35,991 nucleotides of DNA from a virus. The position numbers and the translations under genes are program-made. The notes under the pieces were generated by a model, which saw only the letters and a list, made by a program, of their open reading frames with translations, did not search any database and had not been told where the DNA came from. The stretch lies in the UHGV virus genome UHGV-0222783; one strand, written 5' to 3'. This document shows positions 4,311-35,813 of the stretch, piece by piece (position 1 is the first letter of the stretch; every line of letters begins with the position of its first letter).

Positions 4311-5663
<1,353 letters not shown>

Positions 5664-5671
5664 GACATTCC

Positions 5672-5703
5672 CGCTCTTACACATCCCAGCCCTGAAAAAG
5701 GGC
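5672..5703 (+). promoter_or_regulatory. nutR (boxA + boxB)
   Basis: CGCTCTTA (5672..5679) and boxB hairpin GCCCTGAAAAAGGGC (5689..5703) immediately after cro. Confidence 0.75.
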
Positions 5704-5782
5704 ATCAAATTAAACCACACCTATGGTGTATGCATTTATTTGCATACATTCAATCAATTGTTATCTAAGGAAATACTTACAT

Positions 5783-6061
5783 ATGCAACTTACAAGTACT
5801 CGCAAGAAAGCGAATGCAATTACAAGCAACATCCTGAATCGAATTGCTGTACGTGGTCAGCGAAAGGTTGCCGACGCGTTAGGGGTTAATGAATCGCAAA
5901 TTTCGCGATGGAAAGACAGCTTCATCCCCAAAATGGGAATGCTTCTGGCTGTTCTTGAATGGGGTGTTGAAGACGAGGAGTTGGCGGAACTGGCTAAGCA
6001 AGTAGCCAGAATGCTGACAAAAGAAAAAGCCCCGAAGAACGGCGAATTCTTCGAGGCCTAA
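5783..6061 (+). CDS. cII: CII-family transcriptional activator
   Basis: ...QRKVADALGVNESQISRWKDSFIPKMGMLLAVLEWGV... aligns with lambda CII (..GVDKSQISRWKRDWIPKFSMLLAVLEWGV..). ATG at 5783. Confidence 0.8.
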   Translation: MQLTSTRKKANAITSNILNRIAVRGQRKVADALGVNESQISRWKDSFIPKMGMLLAVLEWGVEDEELAELAKQVARMLTKEKAPKNGEFFEA

Positions 6062-6095
6062 TGTAGAAAGACTGGATCAATCCACGGGAGTAATT

Positions 6096-6257
6096 ATGAC
6101 AAAACGTCGTAAGAAATACCAGGAAAAAGAAGAGATTCGACACCCTGATTCACCTGAGGGATTAGTGGTAGCCGCAGCAAATAACAGGGCGTTCGCAGAG
6201 CGCCTTGTTGGTGTTTACAGACTAGCTAAAGCAGGAGTGAAACATGGGCGTCGTTAA
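6096..6257 (+). CDS. small basic ORF (53 aa) between cII and the O-like gene
   Basis: Hand translation [53 protein letters not shown]. Overlaps the O-like start by 14 nt; no clear SD. Below track cutoff. Confidence 0.25.
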   Translation: MTKRRKKYQEKEEIRHPDSPEGLVVAAANNRAFAERLVGVYRLAKAGVKHGRR

Positions 6258-7074
6258 GTTAGCTGATTACAGGCCTCAACTGGAGGTCGTGGAGCATCGC
6301 GTGGCAGAACTCGAAGATGGCTACACTCGGACTGCAAACACACTGTTAGAAGCCGCCATGCTTTCTGGACTTACTCTACATCAGTTACTGATTGTTATGG
6401 CTGTGTGGCGCAAGACATACGGTTACAACAAAAAAATAGATTGGATCGGAAACGAACAGTTCGCTGAACTCACTGGCATGGCACCAACCAAATGCTCTAC
6501 CGCCAAAAACGAGCTTATCAGAATGGGAGTTCTCATTCAGGTGGGGCGTCAAGTTGGTATGAATACAAACATTTCCGAGTGGAAAACGAAAGTTAACGGA
6601 TTCGGTAAAACATTTACCAATTCGGTAAAACAAACCTTCACCAAATCGGTAAAAAGCAATTTACCGAATCAGTCAAACACAAAAGACAATATACAAAAGA
6701 CAATAAATACAAATACCCCCTTACCCCCTAGCGGGGGCGGCGATGGGCAGGTTAAACCTGAACGTCGCAAGGCAGAACGAATCGACTACGAATCCTTCCT
6801 GAACGCCTACAACACCGAAGTCGGTGACAGACTTCCACACGCTGTTGCGGTCAACGAGAAACGAAAACGCCGCCTGAAGAAAATCATCCCGCAACTGAAA
6901 ACGCCAAACGTGGACGGTTTCAGAGCGTATGTCAGGGCGTTTGTGCATCAGGCCAAGCCGTTTTACTTCGGAGACAACGACACTGGCTGGACGGCAGATT
7001 TTGATTACCTGCTGAGGGAAGATTCGTTAACGGGAGTACGGGAAGGGAAGTTTGCAGACAGGGGGATTGCATGA
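6244..7074 (+). CDS. replication initiator, lambda O N-terminal-domain family (P22 gene 18-like)
   Basis: ...[16 protein letters not shown]...[11 protein letters not shown]...NISEW... parallels the lambda O N-domain. Internal iterons. Followed by and overlapping a helicase gene. Confidence 0.8.
6596..6725. repeat. ori-like iteron array plus A/T-rich tract inside the O-like gene
   Basis: Repeated ttcggtaaaa (6601..6610, 6621..6630), atcggtaaaaa (6645..6655) and inverted ttaccgaatc (6661..6670), followed by the A-rich run aaaagacaatatacaaaagacaataaatacaaata. Confidence 0.6.
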
Positions 7075-8447
7075 GACAGGATATCGAAGCGAGCGTTATC
7101 GGTGGCCTGCTGATTGGTGGATTAACTCCAACTGCCAGTGACGTTCTGGCAACGCTTGAGCCGGAAGCATTTTCAATTCCGCTCTACCGGAAAGCCTTTG
7201 AGGTTATCCGCAAGCAGGCGAGAAACAGAAACCTAATCGACGCGCTGATGGTTGCCGAAGCGTGCGGAGAGGAGCATTTCACGTCAATCCTGATGACCAG
7301 CAAAAACTGCCCGAGTGCCGCAAACCTGAAGGGATATGCCGGAATGGTCGCGGATAACTATCACCGCCGTCTGGTGCTGGAAATCATGGATGAAATGCGT
7401 GAACCAATTCAGAGCGGCACCATCGACGTATCGAGTCAGGCGATGGATGAACTTGTAAAGCGTCTCTCAGCCATCAGAAAGCCCCGTGACGAGGTTAAAC
7501 CTGTACGGTTAGGGGAAATCATTACTGACTATACTGACACGCTTGACAGGCGTCTGAGGAACGGAGAAGAGTCAGATACCCTGAAGACCGGAATTGAAGA
7601 ACTTGATGCCATCACCGGAGGGATGAACGCGGAAGACCTGGTGATAATCGCTGCTCGTCCTGGTATGGGGAAAACCGAACTGGCGCTGAAGATTGCCGAA
7701 GGCGTTGCAAGCCGCGTTATTCCTGGTTCTGACGTCCGGCGCGGGGTATTGATTTTCTCAATGGAAATGAGCGCATTGCAGATTGCAGAGCGAAGCATTG
7801 CCAACGCCGGGAGGATGTCGGTTAGCGTACTGCGAAATCCTGCATCGATGGATGACGAGGGCTGGGCACGTGTTGCTAACGGCATGAGTCAGCTTGCAGA
7901 TTTGGATGTATGGGTAGTCGATGCCTCGCGATTATCGGTCGAAGAAATACGCTCAATCGCAGAACGGCACAAACAGGAAAATCCAAACCTCTCACTCATC
8001 ATGGCGGATTATCTTGGCCTGATTGAGAAGCCGAAAGCAGACCGCAACGACCTCGCAATTGCTCACATCTCCGGAAGCCTGAAGGCGATGGCGAAAGACC
8101 TGAAAACACCGGTTATTTCCCTGAGTCAGCTTTCACGCGATGTTGAGAAGCGACCAAACAAACGCCCGACAAACGCAGATTTGCGTGATTCAGGAAGCAT
8201 TGAACAGGACGCAGACTCAATCATCATGCTCTATCGGGAAGCGGTATATGACGAGAACAGTAGCGCCGCGCCATTTGCTGAAATCATCGTGACGAAAAAC
8301 CGTTTTGGCTCACTTGGTACGGTTTACCAGCGGTTCTGCAACGGACACTTTGTTGCATGTGACCAGGATGAAGCCAGACAGATTTGCACAGCATCAAATG
8401 CACCTGCTGCGCGTGGCAGACGATATGCACAAGGGGCTGACGTATGA
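7071..8447 (+). CDS. DnaB-family replicative helicase (P22 gene 12-like)
   Basis: 458 aa. Walker [16 protein letters not shown], DnaB-like C-terminal RecA fold motifs. ATG overlaps the O-like stop. Confidence 0.9.
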
Positions 8448-12519: not shown

Positions 12520-12594
12520 GGGTCAGTCGTATAAAGGTCATTACGGAAGGCTGTTAACCTTCTTATCGTGGTTCGAGTCCACGCTGTCCCGCCA
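12520..12594 (+). tRNA. tRNA-like gene, anticodon GUU (Asn-like); may be degenerate
   Basis: Hand-folded cloverleaf: acceptor gggtcag/ctgtccc (one T-T mismatch), D-loop with GG, perfect anticodon stem gaagg/ccttc with loop ctGTTaa, T-arm cgtgg-ttcgagt-ccacg, discriminator G, encoded CCA. Parallels E. coli tRNA-Asn loops. Confidence 0.5.
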
Positions 12595-12599
12595 AATAT

Positions 12600-12675
12600 G
12601 CTGGTTTAGCTCCAATGGTAGAGCGGTCGCCTTGTAAGCGAATGGGTAGCGGTTCAAGTCCGTTAACCAGCACCA
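12600..12675 (+). tRNA. tRNA gene, anticodon UGU (Thr)
   Basis: Perfect 7-bp acceptor gctggtt/aaccagc, U8, D-stem gctc/gagc with GG in loop, anticodon loop cTTGTaa, T-arm agcgg-ttcaagt-ccgtt, discriminator A, encoded CCA. Confidence 0.65.
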
Positions 12676-31632: not shown

Positions 31633-31864
31633 TTCGCTTGGATGCAGTAGTCAAAGAGATTGCGATTACCATTTTAAGACCAAATTTTGTTCATGGCGAA
31701 TCATTTGGCACGAACGAAAAATTGAGAAGAGAAAGAGTATTCAGTGGCAAGCGCACGTTTTCAGAAGTGATGCTTGATGCGGCAAAGAAATCAAAACAGT
31801 GAAGCCCCAACTGCTGGAACAGTCAGGGCTTCGGTTGTCGGTAAATCCGTGGAGAAAAACCAAC

Positions 31865-32810: not shown

Positions 32811-32867
32811 TGCCCAAAATTCACCGTGGCCATGCTGCGGCGATTCTTTGCATCTGGAGCAAATTAA

Positions 32868-35813
32868 ATGACAGACATTACAGCCAATGTGATTGTATCG
32901 ATGCCTTCGCAACTCTTCACTATGGCGCGTTCTTTTAAAGCCGTAGCCAATGGCAAAATTTATATCGGTAAAATTGACACTGATCCTGTAAATACAGAAA
33001 ACCAGATTCAGGTCTATGTGGAGAATGAAGACGGTTCTCACGTTCCTGTTTCGCAACCAATAATCATTAACGCTGCTGGATATCCGGTATATAACGGACA
33101 GATTGCCAAATTCGTTACCGTGCAAGGCCATTCTATGGCTGTTTATGATGCGTATGGTGCGCAGCAGTTCTATTTTCCTAATGTGCTGAAGTATGATCCT
33201 GATCAGTTACGGCAGCAATTAGAAGACACAGATGGAGCGAATAAATACCCAAAACTTCAGATAGCAAGATGGAGAGACAGTTATGATGTAAGAGGTTGGG
33301 GGGCTATTGGTGATGGTGTTCATGATGATACATCAGCTCTATCAGAATTACTTTCTGTTGCAACAGGTGGTGAAAAGATAGATGGGCGAGGGCTTACTTT
33401 TAAAGTATCAACTCTTCCAGATGTCAGTCGATTTAAAAATGCTCGTTTTTTATTTGAGAGAATACCGGGTCAGCCTCTTTTTTATGCTTCTGAAGATTTT
33501 ATCCAGGGAGAGTTATTTAAAATTACAGATACACCGTGGTACAACGCCTGGACGCAGGATAAAACGTTTGTATATGACAATGTCATCTATGCGCCTTTTA
33601 TGGCTGGAGACCGCCATGGTGTAAATAACCTCCATGTTGCATGGGTTCGCTCAGGAGATGACGGGAAGACCTGGACAACGCCGGAATGGCTTACAGATTT
33701 ACATGAAAACTATCCCACAGTTAACTATCACTGCATGAGTATGGGGGTTGTCAGAAATCGCCTTTTTGCTGTAATTGAGACGCGGACCGTGAGCGGAAAT
33801 AAACTGCAGGTTGCAGAGTTGTGGGATCGCCCAATGAGTCGCAGCCTTCGCGTTTATGGTGGTATAACGAAAGCAGCAAATCAGCAAGTCGCTTATATTC
33901 GCATTACTGATCACGGATTATTTGCTGGTGATTTTGTCAACTTCTCAAACTCTGGTGTTACAGGTGTTACCGGGAATATGACGGTGACTACTGTTATTGA
34001 TAAAAATACTTTTACAGTTACGACGCAAAATACCCAGGATGTGGATCAGAATAACGAGGGTAGATACTGGAGTTTTGGTACATCATTTCACTCGTCACCA
34101 TGGAGAAAAACCAGTCTTGGAACTATTCCTTCTTTTGTTGACGGAAGCACTCCTGTTACTGAGATTCACAGTTTTGCGACGATTAGCGATAACAGTTTTG
34201 CTGTTGGCTACCATAATGGTGATATTGGTCCACGCGAGCTTGGGATACTCTATTTCTCTGATGCTTTCGGTTCTCCTGGTAGCTTTGTTCGCAGACGCAT
34301 ACCTGCAGAATATGAGGCGAATGCATCTGAGCCATGTGTAAAATATTATGATGGCATTCTGTATCTGACGACCAGGGGGACATTAAGTACTCAACCCGGT
34401 AGTTCATTGCACAGAAGCTCTGATTTAGGTACATCATGGAATTCTCTTCGCTTCCCAAATAATGTTCATCACTCAAACCTTCCTTTTGCCAAAGTTGGCG
34501 ATGAGCTGATTATTTTTGGCAGTGAGCGCGCATTTGGTGAGTGGGAAGGAGGAGAACCTGATAACCGTTATGCAGGAAATTATCCAAGAACATTTATGAC
34601 CAGAGTTAACGTCAATGAGTGGAGTCTGGATAATGTAGAGTGGGTTAATGTTACTGATCAGATTTATCAGGGCGGAATAGTTAACTCTGCGGTTGGTGTT
34701 GGTTCAGTTTGTATCAAAGACAACTGGCTGTACTACATTTTCGGTGGGGAAGACTTTCTAAACCCATGGAGCATAGGGGATAACAACAGAAAATATCCTT
34801 ATGTTCACGATGGTCACCCGGCTGATTTGTATTGTTTCAGGGTGAAAATTAAACAGGAAGAATTTGTTTCAAGGGATTTTGTCTACGGAGCCACTCCTAA
34901 CAGAACGCTTCCTACTTTTATGTCGACGTCAGGCGTGAGGACGGTTCCTGTACCCGTTGATTTCACAGATGATGTTGCCGTCCAGTCACTGACTGTCCAT
35001 GCAGGTACATCAGGACAAGTTCGCGCGGAAGTCAAACTTGAGGGTAATTACGCCATTATTGCGAAGAAAGTACCGTCTGATGATGTTACCGCTCAGAGAT
35101 TAATCGTTAGCGGAGGTGAAACAACGTCTTCAGCAGATGGTGCAATGATAACGTTGCATGGTTCCGGAAGCAGTACTCCACGTCGCGCGGTATATAACGC
35201 ACTCGAACATCTTTTTGAGAACGGAGATGTTAAACCTTATCTTGATAATGTAAATGCTCTTGGTGGTCCGGGAAACAGGTTCTCGACAGTTTATCTTGGC
35301 TCCAATCCTGTGGTTACCAGTGACGGAACATTAAAGACAGAGCCGGTCTCTCCTGACGAAGCATTGCTGGATGCCTGGGGTGACGTCAGGTATATCGCTT
35401 ATAAATGGCTGAACGCTGTCGCTATAAAGGGGGAAGAAGGGGCGAGGATACATCATGGTGTAATCGCGCAGCAACTTCGTGATGTTCTTATTTCTCACGG
35501 ACTCATGGAAGAAGAAAGCACAACATGCCGCTATGCCTTTCTTTGCTATGACGATTATCCCGCAGTATATGATGACGTCATTACTGGCCAAAGGGAAATG
35601 CCGCTGACTGATAATGACGGGAGCATCATTGTTGATGAGGATGATAATCCAGTGATGGTAATGGAAGACATCATTGAGCGCGTTGAAATAACGCCAGCAG
35701 GATCTAGATGGGGGGTCAGACCTGATCTCTTATTCTATATCGAGGCAGCATGGCAGCGCAGAGAAATAGAAAGAATAAAAGCTAGGTTAGACTTAATAGA
35801 AGGGAAGCACTAA
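32868..35813 (+). CDS. tailspike: P22-type N-terminal head-binding domain fused to an endosialidase with C-terminal intramolecular chaperone domain
   Basis: 981 aa. N-terminus [42 protein letters not shown] is the P22-like particle-binding domain. Sialidase Asp-box motifs SGDDGKTW and SSDLGTSW. C-terminal region resembles the self-cleaving chaperone domain of K1-phage endosialidases. Confidence 0.8.

What the first reader, a model, noticed from the sequence alone, without database searches (positions are those of the whole stretch)
6596..6725. Origin-like iterons embedded in the O-like initiator gene
At least four copies (direct and inverted) of a ~10-bp unit (t)tcggtaaaa / ttaccgaatc, followed by an A-rich tract, lie inside the linker-coding part of the initiator gene, the same arrangement as ori-lambda inside O. 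This probably marks the replication origin and explains the odd Thr/Lys/Asn-rich linker peptide.
Basis: partly seen in the sequence, partly recalled or inferred. Interest (0 to 1): 0.35.

Follow-up and report, generated by a model that had tools for sequence, protein, structure and literature searches.

The report
P22-type origin inside initiator gene
The repeats are real and are almost certainly the phage's replication origin, but this is the long-known origin of phage P22 (gene 18), built like the origin of phage lambda, so the finding is correct and ordinary.

Summary
Window 6593-6676 holds four 17-bp imperfect palindromes (consensus TTTACCGA-N-TCGGTAAA) spaced 20/24/23 bp. They are followed by a 22%-GC A-rich tract (6677-6713) and a TACCCCCT doublet (6714-6729). 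All of this lies inside a 276-aa O-like initiator gene (6244-7074, Pfam Phage_rep_O), upstream of a DnaB-like helicase gene.

The stretch is 139/145 identical to the rep_origin annotated inside P22 gene 18, and the iteron spacing is exactly that of the four annotated ori-lambda iterons.

In 119 related loci the iteron type always travels with the N-terminal domain type, with one unresolved N-domain, while the C-terminal domain assorts independently. The four repeats start in all three reading frames. Natural variants spare the outer iteron arms and change the encoded amino acids. The encoded peptide (aa 119-177) is modelled with low confidence, which fits a linker. So the constraint acts on the DNA.

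Inferred mechanism: initiator dimers bind the iterons, the adjacent A-rich tract melts, and the C-domain brings in the phage helicase.

The window's gene is a P22/HK97 mosaic with a joint at the shared A-rich block. Verdict: already known (P22 ori; stated in PMC8022706). Interest is low.

The parts
6244..7074 (+). O-like / P22 gp18-like replication initiator gene (276 aa). It is a mosaic: the first ~10 codons are HK97-like, codons ~11-145 are P22-like, codons 146-162 are shared by both, and codons 163-276 are HK97-like.
   Evidence: ORF list; Pfam Phage_rep_O at aa 19-113, E 4.2e-36; four-way DNA alignment; segment identities.
6298..6582 (+). Coding region of the N-terminal Phage_rep_O domain (aa 19-113). 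It is the inferred iteron-recognition domain and has a winged-helix-like fold.
   Evidence: Pfam. AlphaFold pLDDT is 74-92 for aa 30-110, with a helix-turn-helix plus beta-hairpin. The top Foldseek hits are all winged-helix regulators, but none is significant (E >= 0.09). The N-domain is 94% identical to P22 gp18 over the ~100 residues compared.
6593..6609 (.). Iteron 1, TTAACGGATTCGGTAAA
   Evidence: identical in P22 ori
6613..6629 (.). Iteron 2, TTTACCAATTCGGTAAA (best palindrome, 7/8 arm matches)
   Evidence: differs from P22 at two central bases
6637..6653 (.). Iteron 3, TTCACCAAATCGGTAAA
   Evidence: identical in P22 ori
6660..6676 (.). Iteron 4, TTTACCGAATCAGTCAA
   Evidence: identical in P22 ori
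6677..6713 (.). A-rich, strand-asymmetric, low-stability tract (22% GC). It includes the tandem ACAAAAGACAATA(T/A) x2 at 6679-6706 and is the inferred DNA-unwinding element.
   Evidence: Composition. The least stable 30-mer of the replication genes starts at 6686, rank 16 of 35,962. The tract is 100% identical in P22 and HK97. Its start, ACACAAAAGACA.TAT, is shared with ori-lambda.
6714..6729 (.). TACCCCCT x2, a G+C-rich clamp at the right edge of the shared block. It encodes TPLPP, and the C-domain types diverge immediately after it.
6775..7071 (+). Coding region of the C-terminal helical domain (aa 178-276). It is HK97-type, and its inferred role is recruiting the helicase.
   Evidence: AlphaFold helices at 182-267. 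It is 97% identical to HK97 and about 52% to P22 at the DNA level just after the joint. It assorts independently of the iteron type.
7071..8447 (+). DnaB-like replicative helicase gene (P22 gp12 type, 458 aa), overlapping the initiator stop codon (ATGA)
   Evidence: Pfam DnaB_C E 1e-77 and DnaB N-domain; 90% identical to P22 gp12.
5392..5420 (+). pR-like promoter (TTGACA-17-GAAAAT). Its transcript would run through cro, cII, ORF53, the initiator gene and the origin.
   Evidence: Consensus scan only; gene order.

Best explanation
Window 6593-6729 is the vegetative replication origin of this P22-like E. coli phage. It is the P22 (gene 18) allele of the lambdoid 'origin inside the initiator gene'.

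Shown here:
- Four dyad-symmetric 17-bp iterons lie in lambda's exact 20/24/23 geometry.
- They sit next to an unusually unstable A-rich tract.
- They are embedded in the low-confidence (likely linker) part of a Phage_rep_O initiator.
- They are nearly identical to the annotated P22 ori.
- They are inherited as one unit with the N-terminal domain.

Inferred from lambda and P22 biology:
- After pR transcription produces the initiator, dimers of it bind the four iterons through the N-terminal winged-helix domain, one monomer per 8-bp half-site.
- They assemble into an 'O-some' that bends and wraps the DNA.
- The torsional stress, helped by transcription through the region, melts the adjacent A-rich tract.
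- The C-terminal domain then brings in the phage's own DnaB-like helicase, encoded immediately downstream. This differs from lambda, where O recruits P bound to host DnaB.
- Host primase and Pol III then start bidirectional theta replication.

The Thr/Lys/Asn-rich linker peptide is largely a by-product of having to encode the origin.
For: Homology to a known origin:
- Window 6593-6737 is 139/145 identical to rep_origin 32840-32984 of NC_002371, inside P22 gene 18.
- PMC8022706 states that P22 gene 18 contains four ~20-bp repeats different from lambda's, and that such initiators bind iterons within their own coding regions.
- The lambda/P22 hybrid that carries only P22 orf48-18-12 replicates with P22 specificity, which places the cis-acting origin within that segment (PMC3349717).

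Geometry:
- Lambda's annotated iterons, P22, HK97 and the window all show 4 copies spaced 20/24/23.

Statistics:
- The consensus gives 8 matches (4 sites, both strands) against 0.08 expected.

Co-inheritance, from 119 loci anchored on the shared A-rich block:
- P22-type iterons go with a P22-type N-domain in 36 of 37 loci. The last one has a poorly aligned ORF.
- HK97-type iterons go with an HK97-type N-domain in 73 of 73 loci.
- C-domains assort freely: P22N+HK97C 24, P22N+P22C 9.

DNA-level selection, among 17 P22-type haplotypes:
- Third codon positions vary at 13 of 16 sites in the N-domain codons just upstream, but at only 5 of 28 inside the array (Fisher p = 7e-5).
- Nine of the 14 variable array sites are at codon positions 1-2.
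- By my count from the table, variable sites are 3/48 in the outer arms, 6/20 in the iteron centres and 5/16 in the spacers.
- Iteron starts are at gene offsets 349, 369, 393 and 416, which is frames 1, 0, 0 and 2, so the repeat is not a peptide repeat.

Linker and unwinding element:
- pLDDT is below 50 for aa 119-177.
- The DUE candidate is 22% GC and contains the least stable 30-mer of the replication genes.

Generality:
- Eight other Phage_rep_O genes each have their own mid-gene repeats.
Against: - No experiment bears directly on this window.
- The P22 rep_origin feature is itself annotated 'similar to phage lambda', that is, by similarity. As far as I could read, the experimental mapping only confines the origin to orf48-18-12.
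- The survey was anchored on a 26-nt exact match inside the A-rich tract, so the invariance of 6679-6704 is forced by ascertainment. It is not evidence.
- T146 and K147, encoded in the A-rich tract, are invariant in a protein-ascertained alignment. Part of that block's conservation may therefore be protein-level.
- The A-rich tract is the 16th least stable 30-mer in the window, not the first. With 40-60-bp windows, a stretch at 5734-5744 is locally less stable.
- The winged-helix assignment rests on non-significant Foldseek hits.
- Helicase recruitment by the C-domain is inferred. P22-type and HK97-type C-domains (57% identical) both sit next to ~90%-identical helicases, so no tight covariation was seen.
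Confidence: 0.9

Rival explanations
1. The repeats are only a protein-level tandem repeat (FT.SVK-type low-complexity linker) with no cis-acting DNA role.
For: Iterons 2 and 3 are 24 bp apart and encode FTNSVK and FTKSVK. One homologue, P0027, has FTESVKQ repeated five times in frame.
Against: - Iterons 1 and 4 are in other reading frames and encode unrelated peptides, VNGFGK and NLPNQSN.
- Each unit is a palindrome, which a peptide repeat does not need.
- Variation in the array is mostly non-synonymous while the outer arms, third positions included, stay fixed.
- The spacing equals lambda's although the peptides differ.
- The segment is modelled with low confidence.
Confidence: 0.02
2. The palindromes are binding sites of the initiator or another regulator, but they serve autoregulation, copy-number control or incompatibility rather than origin firing. 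The true origin lies elsewhere.
For: Iterons in plasmid systems do double duty in control (general knowledge). Ectopic ori-lambda copies inhibit lambda replication (PMC3349717; PMC4488673, listed). Nothing here measures where replication starts.
Against: - In lambda the homologous four sites are the origin (PMC7466680).
- An unwinding-prone A-rich tract sits directly beside them, as in lambda.
- The P22 replication segment orf48-18-12 is sufficient in a lambda hybrid.
- No second cluster of the consensus exists anywhere in the 36-kb window.
Confidence: 0.05
3. The region is mainly a recombination joint. The conserved block is kept because it lets modules be exchanged, and the repeats next to it are incidental.
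For: 6677-6729 is 100% identical in P22, HK97 and the window, while the flanks drop to 52-56%. The window's gene changes parentage exactly there. N and C domains reassort across it.
Against: This explains the shared block but not the palindromes, their lambda-like spacing or their covariation with the N-domain. It is compatible with the origin function rather than an alternative to it. Part of the block's invariance in my survey is forced by how the loci were collected.
Confidence: 0.03

Closest known systems
Replication origin of Salmonella phage P22, inside gene 18 (rep_origin 32840-32984 of NC_002371; Backhaus & Petri 1984, cited from the reference list seen)
   Same: The four iterons, the spacing, the A-rich tract and the TACCCCCT doublet are the same: 139/145 nt identical. 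The N-terminal domain is 94% identical over the ~100 residues compared. A gp12-type helicase lies downstream, 90% identical.
   Different: There are six substitutions: two at the centre of iteron 2, two in spacers, and two just past the doublet. The first ~10 codons and the whole C-terminal domain are HK97-type, not P22-type; identity is about 52% just after the joint. The same P22-type N-domain/iteron plus HK97-type C-domain arrangement is seen in phage BTP1.
ori-lambda inside gene O
   Same: Both have a Phage_rep_O N-domain and four dyad-symmetric iterons spaced 20/24/23 at the same place in the gene. Both are followed by an A-rich tract that begins ACACAAAAGACA.TAT, and both are transcribed from pR.
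   Different: The iteron sequence is unrelated (ATCCCTCAAAACGAGGGA against TTTACCGAATCGGTAAA). The N-domain is only about 41% identical. The C-domain is not homologous, and the partner is a phage DnaB-like helicase rather than lambda P plus host DnaB.
HK97 / SPN9CC / Nil2 / Stx-phage O genes with a DnaB-like 'P'
   Same: The 5' end, the A-rich block, the C-domain (97%) and the helicase are identical or nearly so. They also have four palindromic iterons with 20/24/23 spacing.
   Different: They use a different specificity cassette. The N-domain is about 41% identical and the iterons are TTAGCCAAGTCGGCTAA, 56% identical over the array.
Iteron origins of theta plasmids (pSC101, R6K, F, RK2; Rep_3-type initiators)
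   Same: They follow the same logic: repeated initiator-binding sites beside an A/T-rich unwinding element, with a winged-helix initiator.
   Different: The initiator here is Phage_rep_O, not Rep_3. The sites here are palindromes that suit dimers, whereas plasmid iterons are direct repeats bound by monomers (general knowledge). The origin here lies inside the initiator's own coding sequence.

Membership tests
Lambdoid origin embedded in the initiator gene (ori-lambda / ori-P22 type) | Initiator with an N-terminal Phage_rep_O (lambda O) DNA-binding domain | tested here: met
   PF04492 at aa 19-113, E 4.2e-36, 123.8 bits against a cut-off of 28.7
Lambdoid origin embedded in the initiator gene (ori-lambda / ori-P22 type) | Array of about four ~17-19-bp iterons with internal dyad symmetry, inside the initiator gene just after the N-domain codons | tested here: met
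   Four 17-mers at 6593-6676 with 6-7 of 8 arm symmetry; 8 strand-matches against 0.08 expected
Lambdoid origin embedded in the initiator gene (ori-lambda / ori-P22 type) | Iteron spacing as in ori-lambda (20, 24, 23 bp start to start) | tested here: met
   The window, P22, HK97 and the annotated lambda iterons all give 20/24/23
Lambdoid origin embedded in the initiator gene (ori-lambda / ori-P22 type) | A/T-rich, strand-asymmetric, easily melted tract immediately to the right of the last iteron | tested here: met
   6677-6713 is 22% GC with AT skew about +0.5. The least stable 30-mer of the replication genes lies there, in the top 0.04% of the window
Lambdoid origin embedded in the initiator gene (ori-lambda / ori-P22 type) | Iteron sequence is matched to the initiator's N-terminal domain (specificity cassette) | tested here: met
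   119 loci: iteron type and N-domain type correspond one to one, with one unresolved ORF, while the C-domain assorts freely
Lambdoid origin embedded in the initiator gene (ori-lambda / ori-P22 type) | Helicase or helicase-loader gene immediately downstream, translationally coupled | tested here: met
   DnaB-like helicase at 7071-8447 with an ATGA overlap. This is the P22 gp12 type, not the lambda P type
Lambdoid origin embedded in the initiator gene (ori-lambda / ori-P22 type) | Initiator binds the iterons, and replication starts here in vivo | not testable with these tools
   Needs footprinting, a mini-replicon assay or replication-bubble mapping. Indirect support: the lambda(18,12)P22 hybrid replicates with the P22 segment (PMC3349717)
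P22 ori allele specifically | Nucleotide identity to the annotated P22 rep_origin | tested here: met
   139/145 identical, ungapped
Plasmid Rep_3 / iteron origins | Rep_3-family initiator and directly repeated (non-palindromic) iterons outside the rep gene | tested here: not met
   The only Pfam hit is Phage_rep_O. The sites are palindromes inside the gene

The most novel reading that the evidence does not exclude
The 53-bp A-rich/TACCCCCT block (6677-6729) may have two roles. It is identical in P22-, HK97- and window-type genes whose flanks are only 52-56% identical. Besides being the unwinding element, it may be a selected 'universal joint' for homologous recombination. That joint would let lambdoid phages re-pair any origin-specificity cassette (N-domain plus iterons) with any helicase-recruiting C-domain. 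The window's three-part mosaic gene would be one product of this. The idea of conserved linker sequences at module boundaries is old. What would be new is evidence that selection for exchangeability acts on the unwinding element itself.
Probability: 0.25. Interest if true: 0.3.

Novelty: already known. Interest (0 to 1): 0.1.

Why it matters
For annotation, the result fixes the replication origin of this P22-like E. coli prophage at window 6593-6729. It also classes its replication specificity as P22-type, with an HK97-type helicase-recruiting domain.

For biology, it is a clean textbook example rather than a discovery. A cis-acting DNA element overrides protein-coding constraint inside a gene. 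The origin-recognition module (N-domain plus iterons) moves as one unit between phages.

The cassette is uncommon in E. coli. At 80% query coverage or more, it is found in 34 of 5,426 complete genomes.

Tried and rejected
- A PDB sequence search with the initiator found nothing meaningful; the best hit was E 0.29 to a GPCR.
- A Foldseek search of the AlphaFold model against the PDB gave no significant hit. The best was E 0.09, and the hits were only generic winged-helix regulators. I therefore use the fold only as 'consistent with winged helix'.
- An Rfam scan of the whole window found no RNA family at the locus.
- The 'terminator-like' hit on the minus strand at 6653-6613 is simply iterons 2 and 3 pairing with each other, because they are palindromes. 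I reject it as a terminator. The single-strand DNA fold (z = -3.5) has the same trivial cause.
- I tested whether the C-domain type covaries with the helicase type. It does so only coarsely. P22-type and HK97-type C-domains both accompany ~90%-identical helicases, and only the distant type-C genes have a different helicase. This neither supports nor refutes C-domain/helicase contact.
- A-tract phasing (centres 20, 24.5, 29.5 and 14 bp apart) is suggestive of bending, but I did not run a curvature model and make no claim.
- The P22 genome paper PMC94795 is not held, and Backhaus & Petri 1984 was seen only as a citation. How the P22 ori was first defined is therefore from memory or annotation only.

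Full report
CONTEXT

Window 4712-8447 is a standard lambdoid immunity and replication module. It contains:
- a cI-like repressor gene (4712-5344, minus strand);
- divergent pRM/pR-like promoters, with pR at 5392-5420;
- cro, and cII (Pfam Phage_CII);
- a 53-codon ORF;
- a 276-aa initiator gene at 6244-7074 (Pfam Phage_rep_O at aa 19-113, E 4e-36);
- a 458-aa DnaB-like helicase gene at 7071-8447 that overlaps it.

The rest of the window is a P22-like E. coli podophage. It is 98% identical over 79% of 24 kb to phage phiv205-1 and also matches CUS-3. It carries a sar antisense RNA.

THE OBSERVATION

The repeats are real and far beyond chance.
- TCGGTAAA occurs four times within 75 bp, against 0.86 expected in the whole 36 kb.
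- The unit is not ~10 bp. It is a 17-bp imperfect palindrome with two 8-bp arms around a central base.
- The four copies lie at 6593-6609, 6613-6629, 6637-6653 and 6660-6676. Arm-to-arm matches are 6-7 of 8.
- The consensus TTTACCGAATCGGTAAA at up to 3 mismatches hits only these four sites, on both strands: 8 matches against 0.08 expected.
- Start-to-start spacing is 20, 24 and 23 bp.
- Directly to the right lies a 37-bp tract of 22% GC with A on the top strand (6677-6713). It contains a 14-bp tandem duplication.
- A TACCCCCT doublet follows at 6714-6729.
- The least stable 30-bp duplex of the two replication genes starts at 6686 and ranks 16th of 35,962 positions in the window.

WHAT IT IS

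The RefSeq record of phage P22 annotates a rep_origin at 32840-32984 inside gene 18. The window stretch 6593-6737 aligns to it without gaps at 139/145 identity. The six differences are two bases at the centre of iteron 2, two spacer bases, and two bases beyond the doublet.

Lambda's four annotated iterons (39034, 39054, 39078, 39101) have the same 20/24/23 spacing. So do the arrays in P22 and HK97. The A-rich tract even begins with the same ACACAAAAGACA.TAT as in lambda.

The literature already says this. [quoted passage not shown] It also states that these initiators each bind different iterons within their own coding regions. The lambda/P22 hybrid that carries only P22 orf48-18-12 replicates with P22 specificity, which confines the P22 origin experimentally to that segment (PMC3349717). 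The lambda mechanism (O binding to four iterons, the O-some, the AT-rich tract, transcriptional activation) is summarised in PMC7466680.

INDEPENDENT EVIDENCE THAT THE DNA IS THE SELECTED OBJECT

(a) Reading frame. The four iterons start at gene offsets 349, 369, 393 and 416, which are reading frames 1, 0, 0 and 2. Only iterons 2 and 3 give a repeated peptide (FTNSVK/FTKSVK). Iterons 1 and 4 encode VNGFGK and NLPNQSN.

(b) Variation among natural alleles. I collected 120 IMG/VR loci that share the A-rich word. Among 17 distinct P22-type haplotypes:
- The 49 nt of N-domain codons just upstream vary at 13 of 16 third positions, almost all synonymous.
- Inside the array only 5 of 28 third positions vary (Fisher p = 7e-5).
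- Nine of the 14 variable array sites are at codon positions 1-2.
- By my count from the table, variable sites are 3/48 in the outer six bases of the arms, 6/20 in the iteron centres and 5/16 in the spacers.

(c) Structure prediction. AlphaFold with a 35-sequence alignment models aa 30-110 confidently as a helix-turn-helix plus hairpin. It models the C-domain as helices, and gives aa 119-177 pLDDT below 50. That segment is exactly the part encoded by the origin.

(d) Covariation across 119 usable loci:
- P22-type iterons occur with a P22-type N-domain in 36 of 37 loci. One ORF aligned poorly.
- HK97-type iterons occur with an HK97-type N-domain in 73 of 73 loci.
- Three rarer iteron types occur with other N-domains.
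- C-domains assort independently: P22N+HK97C 24, P22N+P22C 9.

Lambda, P22, HK97, JEP4, an Stx2a phage, phi80 (annotated gp15 sites), Gifsy-2, an Erwinia phage and a Pseudomonas phage all have their own repeats at this place.

MOSAIC STRUCTURE

Compared with P22, HK97-type genes (SPN9CC, Nil2) and BTP1, the window's initiator gene has four parts:
- HK97-like for its first ~30 nt;
- P22-like through the N-domain (93%) and iterons (95%);
- identical to both across 6677-6729;
- HK97-like (97%) and unlike P22 (about 52%) thereafter.

Phage BTP1 has the same P22-type N-domain/iteron plus HK97-type C-domain arrangement. The shared A-rich block therefore also behaves as the recombination joint between the specificity module and the C-terminal module.

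Caution: my survey was anchored on 26 nt of that block, so its invariance there is partly forced. In a protein-ascertained alignment the encoded T146 and K147 are invariant too.

MECHANISM

Shown here: the anatomy, the homology, the DNA-level constraint and the covariation.

Inferred from lambda and P22 knowledge:
- Initiator dimers bind the palindromes, one monomer per 8-bp half-site.
- Four dimers form an O-some that distorts the DNA.
- The neighbouring A-rich tract melts, helped by transcription from pR.
- The C-domain recruits the phage's own DnaB-like helicase.

The last step differs from lambda, where O recruits P bound to host DnaB. I could not support it by covariation, because the helicases next to P22-type and HK97-type C-domains are about 90% identical.

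RIVALS

- A pure peptide repeat is excluded by frames, palindromy and the substitution pattern.
- A purely regulatory binding-site cluster with the origin elsewhere cannot be excluded computationally. It is unlikely, given the adjacent unwinding tract, the lambda precedent, and the absence of any other cluster in the window.
- A 'recombination joint only' reading explains the shared block but not the iterons.

DEAD ENDS

- The PDB sequence search and Foldseek gave nothing significant.
- Rfam found nothing at the locus.
- The terminator-like hit at 6653-6613 is iterons 2 and 3 pairing with each other.

VERDICT

The element is the already described P22-type origin in a common mosaic arrangement. 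It is found at 80% query coverage or more in 34 of 5,426 complete E. coli genomes, and the exact 100-nt iteron allele occurs in nine other viral contigs. Novelty: already known. Interest is low.

Noticed in passing
window 6027-6059 (minus strand): A strong intrinsic-terminator-like hairpin (14 pairs, then TTTCTTTT) lies on the minus strand at the 3' end of cII. It sits where P22 and lambda have the oop antisense RNA terminator. No Rfam family matched.
   Followed up: partly
window 31798-31864 (minus strand): sar antisense RNA of the P22 immI region (Rfam RF00262, 83.9 bits). It marks the window as a P22-like phage with an ant/immI module.
   Followed up: no
window 12520-12594 and 12600-12675 (+): Two adjacent phage-borne tRNA genes: tRNA-Asn(GTT) and tRNA-Thr(TGT).
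   Followed up: no
window 6096-6257 (+): A 53-codon ORF with no Pfam hit, overlapping the initiator start codon. It corresponds in position to P22 orf48 and HK97 gp53. It and the first ~10 initiator codons are HK97-type, unlike the P22-type N-domain that follows.
   Followed up: partly
L047 and L125 (IMG/VR loci); protein P0041: Some O-like initiators carry a T5orf172 domain (PF10544, E 2e-8) inserted between the Phage_rep_O domain and the iteron-coding segment. They have their own iteron type upstream of the same A-rich block.
   Followed up: partly
protein P0027 (Trabulsiella guamensis), alignment A2 columns ~135-175: The peptide FTESVKQ is repeated five times. This implies a P22-type iteron array expanded in 24-bp in-frame steps, a natural variant in iteron number.
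   Followed up: no
L008 (phage JEP4) 718-872 and L009 (Stx2a phage Stx2_13518) 676-818: These initiators share the window's C-domain (84-93% aa). They have a very divergent Phage_rep_O N-domain (E 7e-15) and 12-bp direct repeats, CCGCACATGA(A/T), in two clusters instead of four palindromes. This looks like a different origin architecture on the same chassis.
   Followed up: partly
proteins P0038 and P0055 (alignment A2): A lambda-type N-domain and lambda-type iteron-encoded peptide are joined to the HK97-type C-domain. So the lambda specificity cassette also occurs with the DnaB-like-helicase type of C-domain.
   Followed up: no
plasmid collection hits H95-H102: About 27 records of 35-42 kb, deposited as Salmonella or E. 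coli 'plasmids', carry this N-domain plus ori cassette. They are probably circular P22-like phage genomes assembled as plasmids.
   Followed up: no
window 5734-5800: With 40-60-bp windows the locally least stable duplex is at about 5734-5744, at the start of the cII ORF, rather than in the origin. Its significance is unknown.
   Followed up: no
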